A DNA stretch of 63,618 nt, filler included, from Pirum gemmata (lineage: Eukaryota), in NCBI GenBank assembly GCA_002812295.1. It is 21 parts of 21 records of this genome, joined end to end, with 100 filler letters (N's around TTAATTAATTAA, not from the genome) between each part and the next. Parts side by side here need not be neighbours in the genome. Positions count along the whole stretch, not along the records: positions 15,070 to 17,852 come from PDIN01004609.1; 20 more parts are not named here. One strand, given 5' to 3'. The first letter of the stretch is position 1; each line of letters begins with the position of its first letter. Below the pieces are notes generated by a model. It made no database searches. It saw only the letters and a program-made list of their open reading frames with translations, and had not been told where the DNA came from. Made by a program: the position numbers and the translations under genes. Below are positions 14,681 through 33,223 of this stretch, piece after piece.

Positions 14681-15247
14681 TATTGTTATTGTTATTGTTA
14701 TTGTTATTGTTATTGTTATTGTTATTGTTATTGTTATTGTTATTGTTATTGTTATTGTTATTGTTATTGTTATTTTTATTGGTATTGGTATTGGTATGGT
14801 TAATATTGTTATTGTTATTGTTATTAATACTATTACTGTTATTGTTGGTGTTACTGTTACTACTGGTATTGTTATTGTTATTGTTATTGTTATTGTTATT
14901 GTTAACGTTATTGTTATTAGAAGGGCTATAAAATTAGTATTAGTATTAGTATTAGTATTAATATTAGTANNNNNNNNNNNNNNNNNNNNNNNNNNNNNNN
15001 NNNNNNNNNNNNNTTAATTAATTAANNNNNNNNNNNNNNNNNNNNNNNNNNNNNNNNNNNNNNNNNNNNTAATAATAATAATAATAATAATATGATAGTA
15101 AAAATATTGTAAAGTTATTTAGGTTGGTTTATGAAGATAATATTTGATATAAATGTATAGATATGATAGACTAGTATTTTTTTTTATATGATAATATTAT
15201 GATATCGATATGTCATAATATTATCATACATAGACTAGTATTCAAAT

Positions 15248-16518
15248 TTACCCCTTTTTTCGTTTTTTTTTGTTTTTCTGGGGTCCTAAATTCCTAATAT
15301 AAAAATGGACTGTAGATTCAGTGTAGAACTGCCAAGCCACAAAGTCATTGTCGAAACAATGACGAGTTAAGTAAAGTAATAAAATATTTCTAGCTCCATT
15401 AACATCACGATCAACTTCATAGTTACAACTACCACTCTTACATTTGAATGTTTTTCCTGTAAACTTAGGATTAATAAAGCCACATATACCACAAGTACGA
15501 CTAGTATAAGCTTCATCACAAACTACAACCTTACAACCTTGAATTACTTGAGTTTTAGCAATCAACAATTATCGAAACCTATAATGAGCCCATGAACACA
15601 TCCCACGTACAGTTTTGCTATGTAATTTACGATCAGCTTTTCTAATCATTCTACCAGTATCAAATTTTGGGATCAGAATTACTTTATAATTATTAACTAA
15701 CCAACATACTAATTTGCGATGTACATCATCGATCTTGTTCCGAATTCTATCAATTTGTCTATAATAAGCACGTTTCATGTTTTTTCTTTGCCGTTTATAT
15801 TTTTTTCCTTTCTTGTTTTGTATTTTGTCAACTATAGATTGTAACTTATCTAAGCCCAGACTCATTTCAAATATTCGTCGCATGTCTCCATCACCCCAAT
15901 GGTAAACTACACCATTATATTACTATCGTATAAGGTTTGAAAAGTACGAACACCTGGATCCATTGCAATAACACGATAAACATCATTTCTTTGATTATAT
16001 TGTTCTTCACTAATAACACCACCTCGTGGTTCTTGAGGTAAGTGGTAGTAATAATGAGCCAATCTAGTCATAGAAATTTCAAATGTATTTTTGATACTTG
16101 GTAAGTAAGCTTGTTTTTCAGTCAATCTAGGTCCACTTTTTTGTTGCATTTGTCGATTAATATAACCATCAATATAGTCATTTTGCTTTAACAATACTCG
16201 TACATCTTGTCCTGACTTCGCCTTGTATTTTCGTGAAACCTGTGCACCATTAAAAGCTCTTTCAGTCACTTTAATATTACAATTAAAGCCACGTTTACGA
16301 CGATAACTAACACTATACTCAATCTCAGGTTCACCAGCATCACTTAACTTTTCATTTACAGCTTCAGCTGAGTTTAAAGCATCCACAAACTCATTAATAC
16401 TAGCATCAGTTATTGAATCAGGAACGTCAAAATACCAAGGGTTATTTTGTTTGTTGTAATCAGACTTTAAATATGATCTTTTAATAACAATTTTAATCTT
16501 GCACTCGTTCTTTCTCTT
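15248..16518 (-). pseudogene. tnpB: Fanzor (eukaryotic TnpB-family RNA-guided nuclease), 5'-truncated and disrupted
   Basis: PWYFDVPDSITDASINEF, RuvC-I VIAMDPGVRTF, ILIPKFDT (Pro at the canonical Glu), shifted Glu in VCDEAYTSRTCGICG, CxxC zinc finger, RuvC-III DRDVNGARNI. One 5-bp frameshift insertion near 15915 and one in-frame TAA at 15569-15571. Confidence 0.93.
15290..15370 (-). ncRNA. Candidate Fanzor omega-RNA (guide scaffold) overlapping the ORF 3' end
   Basis: Perfect hairpin GUCAUUGU-UUCG-ACAAUGAC (15344-15363) just after the RuvC-III motif, followed by a weaker second stem. The position matches known TnpB/Fanzor RNAs; boundaries are uncertain. Confidence 0.45.
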
Positions 16519-16566
16519 TTACTACCATGTGAGTGAGGACTAGGAAAATTGTTAAAATGACTACGA

Positions 16567-16995
16567 TATTAATGAGTTTGTGGATGCTTTACACTCAGCT
16601 GAAGCTGTAAATGAAAAGTTGAGTGATGCTGGTGAACCTGATATTGAGTATATTGTTAGTTATCGTCGTAAACGTGACTTTAATTGTAATATTAAAGACA
16701 AGATGTACAAGTATTGTTAAAGCAAAATGACTATATTGATGGTTATATTAATCGACAAATGCAACAAAAAAGTGGACCTAGATTGACTGAAAAACGAGCT
16801 TACTTACCAAGTATCAAAAATACATTTGAAATTTCTATGACTAGATTGGGTCATTATTACTACCACTTACCTCAAGAACCACGAGGTGTGTTATTAGTGA
16901 AGAACAATATAATCAAAGAAATGATGTTTATCGTGTTATTGCAATGGATCCAGGTGTTCGTACTTTTCAAACCTTACACGATAGTAATGGTGTAG
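16567..16995 (+). pseudogene. Second, inverted partial Fanzor copy (region up to RuvC-I) with an internal deletion
   Basis: Reverse-complement match to 15907-16399. It lacks ~57 bp after ...aatattaaa and lacks the 5-bp insertion of the long copy. Confidence 0.92.
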
Positions 16996-17611
16996 ACGAT
17001 ATGGAGAAAGAAAGAGCTTTCGATTGATGCCAAAAACTTCTCAATTCGTCAACTTTGTTCCCTGCTCCCCCCACCTTCACCTTACTCCAACCTTAATAAC
17101 CTACAACCCTAGCTAGACTCCCCCAACAGGGAACTCGAAACGTCGCTATTCCGTTATCATTACCCCCCAGTATATTATGTGTTAAATATTATTATCACCT
17201 GTTTCCAGTCCTAACGACAGTGCATAGTCACAATATTCCTCTTCAGAAGTAGCGTCACTTACTATTGTCGACATGTTAGTATTAATATCAGGGCAATATC
17301 TGATGGTTCTCAATTTAAAAGCAAACTCGCTAAGTATCCACTTTCATCTCCATTCGAAGTTAGGCTCACCGTGAAGGCAGACGAACTGCAAAGTGTTACA
17401 AGAATCGACCTACTTTGAATATTATTGCTTACATACAGATGCAGAGGAAAAAGCGCAGACTGAAAAAAGATTCTATAACTAGTACTTGCCATTGCGATAC
17501 TTGTGGACCATCTACGGACACAAACACATAAGTATTCGAAAAAACAGTAAATAATTCTTCTAGTTTATTGGTAAATAATAATAATAATAATAATAATAAT
17601 ATATACGAGCA

Positions 17612-17789
17612 GAAAGATTTTCCTGTTTTTATGCCGATACCCTTATCTATACCAAATTTAGATATGGCTGGTTTGGATTTAATGTCAAAAATGTTGGTGT
17701 ACATGCCTGATTTTCGAATTAGTGCCGAAAATGCGCTCAAACATGCGTATTTCAATGATATTCCGCCGCAAATAAAGGCGATGTGTTGA
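17612..17789 (+). CDS. Terminal exon or fragment of a cyclin-dependent-kinase-like protein (subdomain XI)
   Basis: PNLDMAGLDLMSKMLVYMPDFRISAENALKHAYFND resembles CDK C-termini. An AG acceptor follows an AAT tract; upstream exons are not seen. Confidence 0.7.
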
Positions 17790-18239
17790 TTTTATTTTTA
17801 AAAATATATTTTGTTTCAGTTTTTTTTTTGTGTTTTTTGTTTTTTGTTTTTTNNNNNNNNNNNNNNNNNNNNNNNNNNNNNNNNNNNNNNNNNNNNTTAA
17901 TTAATTAANNNNNNNNNNNNNNNNNNNNNNNNNNNNNNNNNNNNNNNNNNNNATGATTTTTTTTCCAAACTAAATCTACCCCTCCAAAAAAAATTCCGAT
18001 ATAGTCTATCTATAGTCTATTTCAACACTTATCTTTATCGTTTGCAACACATTATTATCATCATGGTAAAATAAAATACTAAATTAAGTAAGCTATGGCT
18101 AAAACAAGTAAATTTGAGATATAAAATAAGAAAAATAAAACGCCAAAAAAAAAAAAGTCTAAAACAATATTTTTTTTTGTATTATTATAGTGTTATTATT
18201 AAAAACACTATGTTTTAAACTGGTATAATATGTTAATTA

Positions 18240-18690
18240 GTTAATTAATACGTTAAAATCATATTTATTCAAGTATGATAGTATATCCATAGGTGCTAGT
18301 TCTTCATTTACACATCTGTTTTGAAAATTTACCAAAAAGAAACAAACTTTTGTTACTTCATTTATCATTGGTATCATATACATGTCAACTTAGCCACCGA
18401 TGATTGCAATTTTGAACCCCTTGTCAGCCATAACTAAACTACCTTTCCATAATTTACAAAACAACTCTTTTTGATATTTTACAGTTATATCTCTATCACT
18501 TATACCACCAGGGTGACATTCTGAAACAAAAGTTACATGTCGAGTAGAAGATATTCCAACAAGAGCCTTCAAAGTATTATGATGTTTACATTCAGACCAT
18601 GTTGCACTCTGAAGTTCTCTTGAAGATGGTGTGTTTATGAAAAGTTCAGTAGCATCAATTATTAAAGCTGTGGTGGGATATTTTTCGTTA
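18240..18690 (-). mobile_element. Harbinger/ISL2EU-type DDE_Tnp_4 transposase remnant
   Basis: IIDATELFINTPSS.ELQSATWSECKHHNTLKALVGIS..FVS..GGISD, VMADKGF and terminal VCFFLVNFQ. The segment with the catalytic Glu appears deleted. Confidence 0.85.
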
Positions 18691-18716
18691 AATCATTTTA
18701 ATATATACCTTTATCG

Positions 18717-19095
18717 ATGAAACTTTTTTCCAATATATTATCTGGGTTAAACGAAGGATGTTCAAAAAATTTAATCAACAAACTTATTATTTTAAAATTA
18801 ATGAGAGCAGCATTTTATGGTTGTTATGTTTGTCTTAAAATGAAGAATGTTTTGACTGATGAGCATTATGGACCTAAAGCTTACGATATTGAAATAGAAT
18901 ATGCTTATTGTACTTGTGTGAAATGGGTAAATATGGAAAGTGTAGACATGTTGCTGGCTTGTTATTTTTAATTTATTATCATTGGAGATGGCGTAAGGAC
19001 CCAGAGAACTACAAAGTGTGTACAGTTATTCGAAGCCAGTTTAATGTTTCAGGTGATGGTAACAAAGAAGCAAGAGCAATACCAATTAAAGAGTG
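18717..19095 (+). mobile_element. SWIM zinc-finger ORF remnant (second ORF typical of ISL2EU elements), frameshifted
   Basis: AYCTC..GK.GKCRHVAGLLF...CT split across two frames, divergent from the DDE_Tnp_4 remnant. Confidence 0.7.
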
Positions 19096-19099
19096 AGAT

Positions 19100-19171
<72 letters not shown>

Positions 19172-19829
19172 GCAACAACAACAACAACAACAACAGCAAC
19201 AACAGCGCCACCAACCACAAACACAACAACCACTTACACGGCATCATTATAACAATCCATATTACAACAACCCATACCTACCACTATTTCCATACACGAT
19301 CAACGAAAACCACAACGACGATGACGATAACGATNTACCTACCACTATTTCCATACACGATCAACGAAAACCACAACGACGATGACGATAACGATTATGA
19401 TAACCACGACTATGAGCACAACTCAACGAACGAACAACGACGACGCTCACAACGCAACACAAACAGAACACACAACTACAACGAAGTCACCATGACCAAC
19501 ATCAACACCAGCAATAACGGCCACAAAAACAACACAACATACCTGCATCAGCATTCACGCCAACAACAAACACCATTAACACCCACACCATCAGCACTCA
19601 CACCAGCACCAACTGCAACAACACCACCACAGCAACAGCAGCAACAGCAGCAACATATCCACAAATCACCACGAACACACCCGTCAGGGATAAAATACAA
19701 TGAAGTATCGATGACAAAAAACCATACATACTTTTCACAAACATCCACAGCATCGCACAAAGAACATACACAACACACCACACCAGCAACTAAGATGATA
19801 GAATTAATAGAACAAACCAACTATCACAC

Positions 19830-20697
19830 ACACCTTACATTTACAGAAGCAATCAATCAATCAGACAAGGAACAATATATCGAAGCAATAGTTAGCGAAT
19901 TCAACGCAACGAAAAATTCCGAATAGTGGATAGGAAATCCGTTCCCGACAACGAACACGCACAACACAATATGGGGAATAAAAATCAAACAAGATGGGCG
20001 ATATAAAGCAAAGCTGAATCGTCGACCACCAACAGAAGATACTTACTCCCCGGTACTACCCAGTGAAGCAACACGCACACTCATAGCACATTCGGCCAAG
20101 ATAAATCAACCAATTCAGCATTACGATGTCTCAACGCATTCCTACACAAATCCACACCAACCCCACCAACATACATCAATATTCCCCAAGGCATGTACTT
20201 AATCAAAAAACTGCTATCACCAGAACAGCAACGATTACTAGCACGACATTACGACCCGAACGATCAATGTGCAATACAGGTCGGAGTAGCTAGGTATGGC
20301 AAACGTGACGCATCCATGCTCTTTAACCAAAGCATGAGTAATGTAATACGACAACACAACTATAACATACACAAAGTAAAATCATGCATAGCAATATCAC
20401 CGAATGGCAAAACGGCAGTAGGATTGTATGTAGACGACGTATCCACTGAAACACTTAGGAGAAGCACAGGTCATAATCGGCATGGAAATACAGCAAAGTG
20501 AGACCCATACGAAAATACACCAACAAAAATACATACAGAACGTTATAAACCAACTTCGAATACCAATTAACACAAAAATAAGCACACCAATGGCAACCAC
20601 ATTTGCAAAACTCATCAAACAATTAGCACACAACAACCACCACATATCCAAACGATTACTAATAGAATATGCTATAAGAAAAAACGAGAATACGTGG
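19830..20697 (+). mobile_element. Ty1/Copia LTR-retrotransposon reverse transcriptase remnant
   Basis: TFTEAIN..EAIVSEF, W.IKIK.DGRYKAKL, TYSPV, HYDVS, YGKRDA and LYVDD motifs, interrupted by stops and frameshifts. Confidence 0.85.
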
Positions 20698-31726: not shown

Positions 31727-32211
31727 TTACACTCTATCGTACTCTAAATCATCGTATGCTTTTCCACCATTTTCTCCATGGTATACGTAAATTACTTCCA
31801 CACTTGTATAAACCGTAGGCACACTAACATCATTGTCGTCATCAAGCATTGATTGGTACCGTTCAAATTGGCCAAGTAAACAACCAGTTAACACTTGAAA
31901 ATCAGGACGATGTTTTGCAGTTAACGACCAACACTGTTTCATAATATCATAAATATCAGAAGGGCAATTATTTTGACTTAGAGTGTGCCCTGATTCAAGA
32001 TAAGGAAGTAGATTCCAAAGTTTGAGTTGTTTGTAAGGTTTCTTTGCAAAATTCATTATTTCCCACAATGTAATCCCAAAAGACCAAACGTCACATTGCG
32101 GTGTATATTTTAACTCCTGCAAAACTTCTGGTGCCATCCAGGCCAATGGTAATCTTTCTTTGCAGTTAACTCTGCAGTAATCTTGGTCATTCGAAAGGGC
32201 TTTTGATAAAC
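31727..32211 (-). CDS. Protein tyrosine kinase, last exon (subdomains VII-XI plus Tyr-rich tail)
   Basis: Acceptor ctaac..caccag| at 32212, then (DF)GLSKALSNDQDYCRV..RLPLAWMAPE, CDVWSFGITLWEI, PY, CP..IYDIMKQCW...RPDF. Confidence 0.92.
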
Positions 32212-33223
32212 CTGGTGTGGTTAAAGTTAGATATAGAGGTTAGTCGCTTGGGAGGGAAGAGGAAGGGGGAGGGGNNNNNNNNNNNNNNNNNNNNNNNNNN
32301 NNNNNNNNNNNNNNNNNNTTAATTAATTAANNNNNNNNNNNNNNNNNNNNNNNNNNNNNNNNNNNNNNNNNNNNAAATTAAATGAAATGGATTTATATAG
32401 TATTAATTTGGTACTACTTATTGCATATTTTATGACGACAAAATAACTGAAAAGCACGATATATACAAGGACTTCAAAATGTTCCATTTTCCAAATTTGG
32501 TAATCTATTATATAATTTTGGTTTTTTAATCAAATTTGGTATTTTATATCATAAAAATAGTAATTAAATTGAAAAAATATAGAGGGTTTTTTCTAAATTT
32601 TTTAAATATTATTTTAAAAAAAAAAAATTATTGGGATTTTTTTACATATGTAAAGTTTTTTTCAAATATGTAAATAATTTACCAAAGTAGGTAATAAATT
32701 AAAACCTTTGGTAATTTTAATTAAATTTGGAGTTTGAAATCTCAAAAATAGTAATTATTTTGAAAAAAATATTTTTAGGAGAAAATCCTTTCAAATTAAT
32801 TACTATTTTTGATTATTTCAAGTTATTATCCAATAATAATAATGGAAATCTTGTAAAGTTTTCCTAATTACAAAAAAAAATACCAATAACAATACAGAAA
32901 TAGCTATTCTTGTAATATTTTTTAGGAGAAAATTAATTACTATTTTTGATTTGAAAGGACTAATGGACTATCACTTTTAAAAAAAAAAAAGTAAAATAAA
33001 TAAATAAAATAAAATAAGTAGAAAAAATATTATTATGTAAGTTTTTTTTCTATTATCATACAATTTTTTTTTAATCATTACTTCTTTTTTTTTCAATTTT
33101 TGAATTTTTGCTAACCGAAATTTTTGAATTTTTCGATTTTTTTGAATTTTTGACAAAATATGAGATAGTTTTTTTTTTTGTTTTTTTATCGTTTTTATTC
33201 ATATTGATATTTTAATTTTAACT

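What the first reader, a model, noticed from the sequence alone, without database searches (positions are those of the whole stretch)
15248..16518. Fanzor RNA-guided nuclease with intact catalytic motifs and only two visible lesions
Seen: three consecutive minus-strand ORFs form one TnpB/Fanzor frame. It has the DPG RuvC-I, Pro replacing the canonical RuvC-II Glu, the relocated Glu in DEAYTS, a CxxC/CxxxxC zinc finger and DRDVNGARNI. The lesions are a 5-bp duplication (AGTAAT-ATAAT-GG) and a TAA where CAA would give HYRFRQLL. The neighbouring inverted copy keeps the uninserted allele (DSNGV), so the frame can be repaired from the window itself. Established: this rearranged RuvC marks Fanzors and IS607-type TnpBs. 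Inference: recent decay implies intact copies elsewhere in a poorly sampled holozoan genome, i.e. a possibly uncharacterised Fanzor family.
Basis: partly seen in the sequence, partly recalled or inferred. Interest (0 to 1): 0.85.

Follow-up and report, generated by a model that had tools for sequence, protein, structure and literature searches.

The report
Dead Fanzor2 relic in ichthyosporean genome
This is a broken, non-coding copy of a Fanzor2 gene (a known kind of small RNA-guided DNA cutter carried by jumping genes) in what is likely a single-celled relative of animals; it has five lesions rather than two, so it is a fairly ordinary relic, although its gene family appears not to have been catalogued.

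Summary
The motifs are real and mark a Fanzor2, not a Fanzor1. A near-complete relative (P0002, 79-89% identical) matches mimivirus Fanzor2 best by sequence and by Foldseek. 'Only two lesions' is wrong; there are five:
- loss of about 171 N-terminal codons, replaced by a fold-back inverted copy
- a second 5-bp frameshift near 16482
- a 35-bp deletion of the native stop, which runs the frame into the likely guide-RNA region

Four of these are bridged by exact contigs of a public run, so they are not assembly errors. The inverted arm covers only one lesion, so the window cannot repair the gene. The arms differ at 9 of 429 bases, 8 non-synonymous, as expected if both were already dead. Sister copies, mostly 80-95% alike, exist in the same organism and most visible ones are broken. 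One matches two EukProt gene models of the ichthyosporean Pirum gemmata. No complete copy or transposase was shown. I found no ichthyosporean Fanzor in the papers or tables searched, but Fanzor2s are widespread, and this scan has reported dead Fanzor2 relics in other genomes. New member of a known kind.

The parts
16485..16568 (-). 5'-most surviving coding remnant (P0002 residues 52-79; P0137 residues 172-199); everything upstream, including start codon, N-terminal domain and HTH, is lost
   Evidence: tblastn 22/28 identical
16480..16484 (-).
   Evidence: frame change; sister contig lacks 5 letters at 16474-16483 (table 4); exact contig 16169-16739 carries it (table 8)
15923..16479 (-). REC/WED region and RuvC-I (DPG at 15960-15952)
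   Evidence: 85% identical to P0002, 86% to P0137
15918..15922 (-). Lesion: 5-bp insertion, frameshift; arose after the fold-back (inferred, because the inverted arm lacks it)
   Evidence: exact contig 15496-15960 carries it and a sister contig lacks it
15572..15917 (-). Bridge helix and RuvC-II region with Pro at the canonical Glu position (PKFD 15670-15659)
   Evidence: PF01385 E 6e-4; best PDB hit 9B0L; Pro invariant in 95 of 95 relatives
15569..15571 (-). Lesion: in-frame TAA (Gln in P0002 and P0138)
   Evidence: host ORFs use TAA/TAG only as stops, 0 internal in 3270 codons
15359..15568 (-). Shifted catalytic Glu (DEAYTS), C4 zinc finger (CxxC...CxxxxC), RuvC-III (DRDVNGARNI)
   Evidence: PF07282 E 2.4e-15
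15359..15363 (-). Lesion: scar of a 35-bp deletion between 5-bp direct repeats that removed the last codons and the native stop
   Evidence: X1 contig of depth 516 has 30 extra letters plus a 5-letter overlap at this joint (table 5c); exact contig 15105-15405 confirms the window form (table 8)
15250..15363 (-). 3' non-coding tail shared with a sister copy; likely remnant of the omegaRNA/right end (inferred from position); begins with a perfect 8-bp stem closed by a UUCG loop
   Evidence: depth of bin 15250-15339 fits ~99% cover by the sister contig; only such hairpin in the window; overall fold z only -1.3; no Rfam match; no sequence likeness to distant relatives' tails
16567..16995 (+). Fold-back inverted duplicate of 16399-15907 with 58-bp and 1-bp deletions; joined at the 5' break, leaving a 167-nt loop
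   Evidence: 429 aligned bases, 9 substitutions, 8 non-synonymous; both junctions bridged by exact contigs (table 8)
15170..15241 (-). AT-rich palindromic hairpin followed by CTAG-T; possibly an element end, possibly an unrelated small repeat
   Evidence: fold z -5.3; four other X1 contigs match here and diverge at 15228 (table 7); boundary not resolved
17613..17789 (+). Host context: last exon of a CDK-like kinase gene on the same contig (label recalled from motif likeness; Pfam gave no hit)
   Evidence: an X2 contig joins exactly after a CAG at 17612 and an organism-B contig matches 17690-17752 (table 8)

Best explanation
The locus is a pseudogene with five lesions, derived from a Fanzor2 (IS607-type TnpB descendant) that belonged to a multi-copy transposon family in a eukaryote that is likely an ichthyosporean. 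SHOWN: motifs, lesions, sister copies, and Fanzor2-type sequence and fold of the near-complete relative. INFERRED ancestor: a protein of about 575 residues (N-terminal domain, WED, REC, RuvC, zinc finger). It would bind an omegaRNA transcribed from the element's 3' end and cut DNA next to a short motif, likely helping the element persist at or return to its site; that role is by analogy with TnpB and is untested for Fanzors. INFERRED decay: a break in codon ~172 was repaired by fold-back, template-switch synthesis, which removed the 5' part and left the inverted arm. The copy then drifted neutrally and gained the 5-bp insertion at 15920. The order of the TAA, the insertion at 16482 and the 35-bp microhomology deletion is not known. 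This copy cannot make a working nuclease.
For: Relative P0002 (455 aa) aligns over the whole remnant at 79-89% and carries PF12323, PF01385 and PF07282 above cut-off. Its best PDB sequence match is mimivirus Fanzor2 9B0L, E 1e-18, with no Fanzor1 among 15 hits at E<=1. The model (pLDDT 85.9) gives Foldseek 9B0L E 3e-17, TM 0.68 versus SpuFz1 8GKH E 8e-8, TM 0.33. VIA Z is 23.1 (rmsd 3.5, 382 aligned) versus 11.8 (rmsd 5.7, 364 aligned). BFVD top hits are giant-virus 'transposases'. P0137 has an N-terminal domain homologous to that of an IS607 Fanzor2 lying next to a giant-virus capsid gene (L001; E 2e-29). Tree: window and P0002 lie inside the DPG/shifted-Glu clade (100), apart from the bacterial rows. 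Lesions are bridged by 0-difference contigs. Arms differ at 8 of 9 non-synonymous sites, compatible with neutrality (P 0.24-0.42), while family variants are 15 of 29 synonymous against 20-27% expected (P<0.005). Host: EukProt P0137/P0138 are adjacent Pirum gemmata models, and an X1 contig shares their 3-residue deletion and 1-residue insertion. A tyrosine-kinase-like ORF lies in the window (label by eye).
Against: VIA ranks three prokaryotic TnpB chains slightly above 9B0L (Z 24.7, 24.5, 23.7 vs 23.1). No Fanzor1 sequence was in the trees. No IS607 TnpA is in the window, and element ends were not defined, so the transposon type is open. The omegaRNA is inferred from position only (z -1.3). P0002 fails Yoon's strict Fanzor2 pattern because its second Cys pair is wider (107 of 120 homologues pass strict, 118 of 120 relaxed). 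The synonymous test used only 34 of the 40 best-supported of 264 variant rows. The neutrality test has only 9 sites.
Confidence: 0.87

Rival explanations
1. The relic has been kept as a hairpin-RNA source: transcription across the 429-bp inverted arms would give double-stranded RNA that silences the family.
For: Arms are 98% complementary with a 167-nt loop. Run X2, which may be RNA, has low-depth exact contigs at 15691-15896 and 17001-17252.
Against: X2 is not on record as RNA. Its depth here is 2-7 against 304 at the neighbouring exon, and no X2 contig listed spans the loop. The arms have gained unpaired deletions and an insertion.
Confidence: 0.06
2. The sequence is a bacterial pro-Fanzor (IS607 TnpB) or giant-virus contig contaminating the assembly, not a host gene.
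For: Cyanobacterial and giant-virus proteins share all motifs and 40-49% RuvC identity. The assembly consists of ~2.8-kb pieces.
Against: An exact contig links the inverted arm to flank running up to the repeat before the host exon (16947-17564), at the same depth as the element. The family also occurs in run X2 from another study of the same organism and in EukProt gene models. No close match was found in IMG/VR or GTDB (best segments 23-47%).
Confidence: 0.03
3. The gene is functional, with the lesions being assembly errors, tiny introns or TAA read-through.
For: All catalytic and zinc-binding residues are kept. GT..AG spans that restore the frame at 15920 exist by chance (10 spans).
Against: Exact contigs carry the lesions. 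TAA/TAG are never internal in 3270 host codons. The shortest frame-restoring span is 17 nt, and splicing cannot supply the missing 171 codons.
Confidence: 0.02
4. It is a Fanzor1, as the Pro at RuvC-II might suggest.
For: Pro replaces the canonical Glu, whereas mimivirus Fanzor2 has Gly (G416 in 10.64898/2026.06.23.733943).
Against: The validated Naegleria Fanzor2 also has Pro there (sequence rows seen in supplements; compared by eye). Fold, size, HTH and N-terminal domain are Fanzor2-like.
Confidence: 0.02

Closest known systems
Naegleria lovaniensis Fanzor2 (NlovFz2; Saito et al. 2023, PMC10432273)
   Same: By eye on supplement rows: same DPGVRTFQT RuvC-I, Pro at RuvC-II, shifted Glu in EAYTS, DRDxNGARNIL, and a similar N-terminal domain motif (seen here in P0137); nuclear copies in a protist.
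   Different: NlovFz2 has intact copies, a mapped omegaRNA, TAM CCG and shown cleavage. This copy is broken and untested; its family has a wider second Cys pair and an HTH-to-DPG span ~45 residues above the median of relatives (237 vs 192; 16 of 229 are as long). Identity was not computed.
Acanthamoeba polyphaga mimivirus Fanzor2 (ApmFz2/L79, PDB 9B0L; PMC11832414, PMC10530073)
   Same: Best PDB match by phmmer and Foldseek; DPG, shifted Glu and zinc finger; compact TnpB-like architecture.
   Different: About 20% identity; Gly rather than Pro at RuvC-II; virus-encoded in an IS607 element with TnpA, whereas no TnpA is seen here.
IS607 Fanzor2/pro-Fanzor elements of giant viruses and cyanobacteria (e.g. 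L001, L158-L203; Yoon et al., PMC10711439)
   Same: Same motif set; 40-49% RuvC identity; homologous N-terminal domain. Most carry TnpA upstream: 31 of 67 IMG/VR, 25 of 35 metagenome and 34 of 40 L158-L203 loci with enough flank, versus 1 of 32 more distant TnpB loci.
   Different: The window family forms its own long branch among unnamed metagenomic proteins; whether it kept TnpA or was captured by a eukaryotic transposon (Fanzor2*) is unknown.
Pirum gemmata EukProt gene models Pgem_evm2s4184 and Pgem_evm1s4184 (P0137, P0138)
   Same: Same family: 86% and 93.5% identical to the window pieces; two halves of one broken copy.
   Different: A different copy that retains the N-terminal domain and has other lesions; unannotated as Fanzor in the record.

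Membership tests
Fanzor / pro-Fanzor | DPG motif in RuvC-I | tested here: met
   15960-15952; definition from Yoon et al. passages
Fanzor / pro-Fanzor | Catalytic Glu shifted to six residues before the zinc finger; canonical Glu replaced by Pro/Gly | tested here: met
   E-AYTSRT-C, Pro 52 residues upstream; invariant in 95 of 95 aligned relatives; definitions
Fanzor / pro-Fanzor | C4 zinc finger followed by RuvC-III RD | tested here: met
   PF07282 above cut-off. The second pair is CxxxxC, so the strict published pattern (CxxC) is not matched and the relaxed one is
Fanzor (as opposed to pro-Fanzor) | Encoded by a eukaryote or its virus | tested here: met
   Same-depth linkage to host flank and presence in a second study; EukProt gene models of the family
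Fanzor | Conserved structured omegaRNA at the 3' end | tested here: inconclusive
   Tail shared with one sister copy and a UUCG hairpin, but z -1.3, no Rfam hit, no match to relatives
Fanzor | RNA-guided, TAM-dependent DNA cleavage | not testable with these tools
   Needs a bench assay; this copy cannot encode the enzyme
Fanzor2 | Compact TnpB-like architecture with HTH_OrfB_IS605 and a structured N-terminal domain | tested here: met
   For the family: P0002 PF12323, P0137 N-terminal domain, fold. Both parts are deleted in the window copy
Canonical IS607 Fanzor2 element | Serine-recombinase TnpA upstream | tested here: inconclusive
   No TnpA in six frames of the window with an 81-sequence profile, but the 5' part of this copy is lost and sister loci could not be read
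Fanzor2* (captured by eukaryotic transposon) | Terminal inverted repeats and target-site duplication, or Helitron ends | not testable with these tools
   No genome held; the left end is deleted; the right end lies somewhere in 15160-15251
Fanzor1 | Enlarged REC1/REC2 architecture, about 550-700 aa core | tested here: not met
   TM 0.33 and Z 11.8 to SpuFz1 versus TM 0.68 and Z 23.1 to ApmFz2; phylogenetic placement against Fanzor1 was not tested
Intact Fanzor gene | Open frame from start to stop | tested here: not met
   Five lesions

The most novel reading that the evidence does not exclude
The family still has a complete, transcribed member (P0002-like, ~575 aa). It would be the first ichthyosporean Fanzor2, freed from IS607 TnpA and carried by a eukaryotic element with a Helitron-like hairpin-CTAG 3' end, with its own UUCG-capped omegaRNA and a new TAM, and so a new compact editor and an independent capture of Fanzor2 near the origin of animals.
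Probability: 0.15. Interest if true: 0.55.

Novelty: new member of a known kind. Interest (0 to 1): 0.27.

Why it matters
The copy itself is inert. It adds a host lineage (likely Ichthyosporea) and a distinct sequence family to the Fanzor2 census: the published tables I searched list choanoflagellate and Naegleria Fanzors but none from ichthyosporeans. It also points to an open-frame relative (P0002) as a candidate for omegaRNA mapping and TAM testing. It opens no new mechanism: Fanzor2s are already known from fungi, molluscs, choanoflagellates and giant viruses, and several are validated.

Tried and rejected
- Whole-genome search: no genome is held; run contigs were used instead.
- Expression: no RNA holder listed. 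X2 may be RNA, judged from one exon-boundary joint; this is a hint only.
- IMG/VR with P0002 alone: no pattern match. With the alignment, 78 loci, none close.
- TnpA in the window: none.
- Rfam: one chance-level hit, mir-1244 at E 0.8.
- Conserved omegaRNA motif across relatives: none. The UUCG hairpin was in 0 of 137 tails, and the best tail alignments among 110 were to distant TnpB loci.
- I first read the 3' end as replaced by foreign DNA; table 5c showed a 35-bp deletion instead.
- I first took P0002 as a complete gene; P0137 showed 120 more N-terminal residues.
- TAA=Gln code: rejected (the same check had one ORF on the wrong strand and was redone).
- Micro-intron rescue: rejected.
- A uniquely long REC region: rejected, 16 of 229 relatives are as long.
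- Supplement search of PMC10530073 is uninformative because the control names were also absent.
- One search returned only general pseudogene papers.
- The FastTree of 234 rows has weak support near the query and nests cyanobacterial rows differently from the 61-row tree; no donor or order of transfer is claimed.

Full report
Setting. The window is a string of ~2.8-kb AT-rich contigs joined by N spacers; the finding lies in the piece 15070-17852. No whole genome is held, so copy number and lesions were checked against contigs of public runs and protein collections.

Observation. The three ORFs and all named motifs are present. The C-terminal piece hits PF07282 at E 2.4e-15 and TnpB/Cas12f models; the middle piece hits mimivirus Fanzor2 best. 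The N-terminal ORF has no Pfam or NCBIfam hit, but finds one longer relative among 671 candidates (P0002) and one of similar length among 54 (P0137).

Lesions. Against these relatives there are five. (1) The gene is cut at 16568. The first kept residue is 52 of P0002 or 172 of P0137, so the start, the N-terminal domain and the HTH are gone; an inverted copy of 16399-15907 begins at this point. (2) A 5-bp insertion at about 16484-16480 (table 4). (4) The TAA at 15571-15569. (5) A 35-bp deletion between 5-bp repeats at 15363-15359: a sister contig matches both sides with extra letters that end the frame three codons later, as in P0002 (table 5c). Zero-difference X1 contigs span 15105-15405, 15496-15960, 16169-16739 and 16947-17564 (table 8), covering every lesion and both fold-back junctions. 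X1 may be the source of the assembly, so this rules out assembly error but is not independent sampling. X2, from another study, has exact contigs at 15691-15896 and 17001-17252, which bridge no lesion.

Timing. The arms differ at 9 of 429 bases and 8 are non-synonymous. Six changes are derived in the inverted arm and two in the main arm, polarised with P0002. That fits neutral drift (expected synonymous share 20-27%; P 0.24-0.42), though nine sites is a weak test. Variants between family copies are 15 synonymous of 29 codons (P 0.0002-0.005). This used 34 of the 40 rows shown out of 264; I dropped two rows beside the indel and four in the inverted arm. So the family diversified under selection and this copy died later.

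Other copies. Of X1's contigs, 66 were laid at 80% or more (6 at 99+, 9 at 95-99, 16 at 90-95, 35 under 90), with up to six different contigs at one site. Summed depth in RuvC is 2000-4300 against 250-590 per contig; the tool warns this is no copy number. Visible sisters carry a 4-bp insertion, 71- and 124-base skips, or replaced segments. One sister shares a 3-residue deletion and a 1-residue insertion with P0138. P0137 and P0138 are adjacent EukProt models of Pirum gemmata, an ichthyosporean, and are two halves of one broken copy. The host is therefore likely this species or a close relative (inference). P0002 (Logan, 2360-bp contig) has an open frame over the whole core, but its called start aligns to Val121 of P0137, while 69 of 120 homologues have an extension of 80 or more residues. 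Whether it is complete, and whether it is from the same organism, is unknown.

Family. P0002 carries PF12323, PF01385 and PF07282. phmmer against the PDB ranks 9B0L first (E 9.8e-19) with no Fanzor1 at E<=1. The AlphaFold model (95-row alignment, pLDDT 85.9) ranks 9B0L first in Foldseek (TM 0.68) and SpuFz1 25th (TM 0.33). In VIA, TnpBs 8H1J, 8EXA and 8IAZ score Z 24.7-23.7, 9B0L 23.1 and SpuFz1 11.8, so the fold is TnpB/Fanzor2-like and does not separate those two. BFVD hits are giant-virus proteins at 20-25% identity. P0137's N-terminus aligns with that of L001's Fanzor2 (E 2e-29), which overlaps a resolvase gene beside an NCLDV capsid gene. In a 61-row tree (61 of 234 rows picked by hand, SH-aLRT only, no Fanzor1 rows), window and P0002 sit in a 17-row clade of unnamed proteins (97) inside the DPG clade (100), away from the bacterial rows. 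A scan of 1.84 billion representatives finds 7186 relatives, but only P0137 and P0138 are close; the next listed is 44%.

3' end. The tail is shared with a sister down to about 15250, and no other contig reaches below 15160. It starts with the window's only 8-bp UUCG hairpin but folds no better than shuffles overall. I call it a likely omegaRNA remnant by position only. A strong AT-rich hairpin ending in CTAG-T follows (z -5.3); its likeness to a Helitron 3' end is recalled and untested.

Mechanism. For an intact ancestor, RNA-guided TAM-dependent cutting follows from established Fanzor2 biochemistry (PMC10530073, PMC10432273, PMC11832414). Its purpose is stated as unknown in PMC10432273, with promotion of transposon spread by analogy to TnpB. 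For this copy, fold-back repair and microhomology deletion are inferred from junction sequences.

Literature seen. Passages of PMC10530073 (its supplements name no organisms). Part 1 of 7 and passages of bioRxiv 2023.08.09.552727. Passages of 10.64898/2026.06.23.733943, PMC11832414, PMC3627910, PMC11244446 (no mention of Fanzor) and PMC10432273. Supplement term searches of PMC10711439 and PMC10432273 gave 0 for Pirum, Ichthyo, Sphaeroforma and Creolimax, with Salpingoeca and Naegleria present as controls. One file of the latter was unreadable, long files may be cut, and these tables draw on NCBI sets. Full-text searches for Fanzor with ichthyosporea, holozoa or Pirum found 0 papers; subscription journals are mostly not covered. 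Against novelty: PMC10432273 already reports Fz2 in choanoflagellates, molluscs and fungi, and the validated NlovFz2 has the same motif set including the Pro (by eye). Earlier scan notes report dead Fanzor2 relics in other genomes (unchecked).

Verdict. A real but dead Fanzor2 copy from an apparently uncatalogued family in a new host lineage: new member of a known kind, interest 0.27.

Noticed in passing
run X2, window 17613-17760 and 15340-16100: An X2 contig (depth 304) joins the window exactly after a CAG at 17612, like a spliced exon, so X2 may be RNA. If so, diverged Fanzor family copies are transcribed (depth 21-57) well above this copy (about 7).
   Followed up: partly
runs X2 and X3, window 15362-15412: A high-depth contig matches only the DRDVNGARNI region and continues into a different zinc finger: a second, more distant Fanzor family in the same organism.
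   Followed up: no
window 15170-15241: AT-rich 18-bp-arm hairpin (z -5.3) flanked by two ACTAGT-containing repeats; matched by four other X1 contigs that diverge at 15228.
   Followed up: partly
window 15918-15922 and 16480-16484; X1 contigs at 15566, 15897, 15997: Insertions in this family are short AT-rich near-duplications (3-5 bp), suggesting a repair signature of the host.
   Followed up: no
window 1698-2429: Another inverted repeat, 164-nt arms 90% complementary and 404 nt apart.
   Followed up: no
window 18390-19096 and 19090-20501: Fragments resembling a DDE/Harbinger-type transposase and a copia-like reverse transcriptase (labels by eye).
   Followed up: no
window 44268-45212: ORF with three tandem ubiquitin-like domains behind a signal-peptide-like start (by eye).
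   Followed up: no
window 31727-32239: Tyrosine-kinase-like catalytic fragment, consistent with a holozoan host (by eye).
   Followed up: no
L001:2660-6176: Intact IS607 element (resolvase plus Fanzor2, overlapping frames) directly after an NCLDV major capsid gene.
   Followed up: partly
P0015: 1139-aa relative with XPG-type nuclease domains (PF00867, PF00752) fused to the Fanzor2 core.
   Followed up: no
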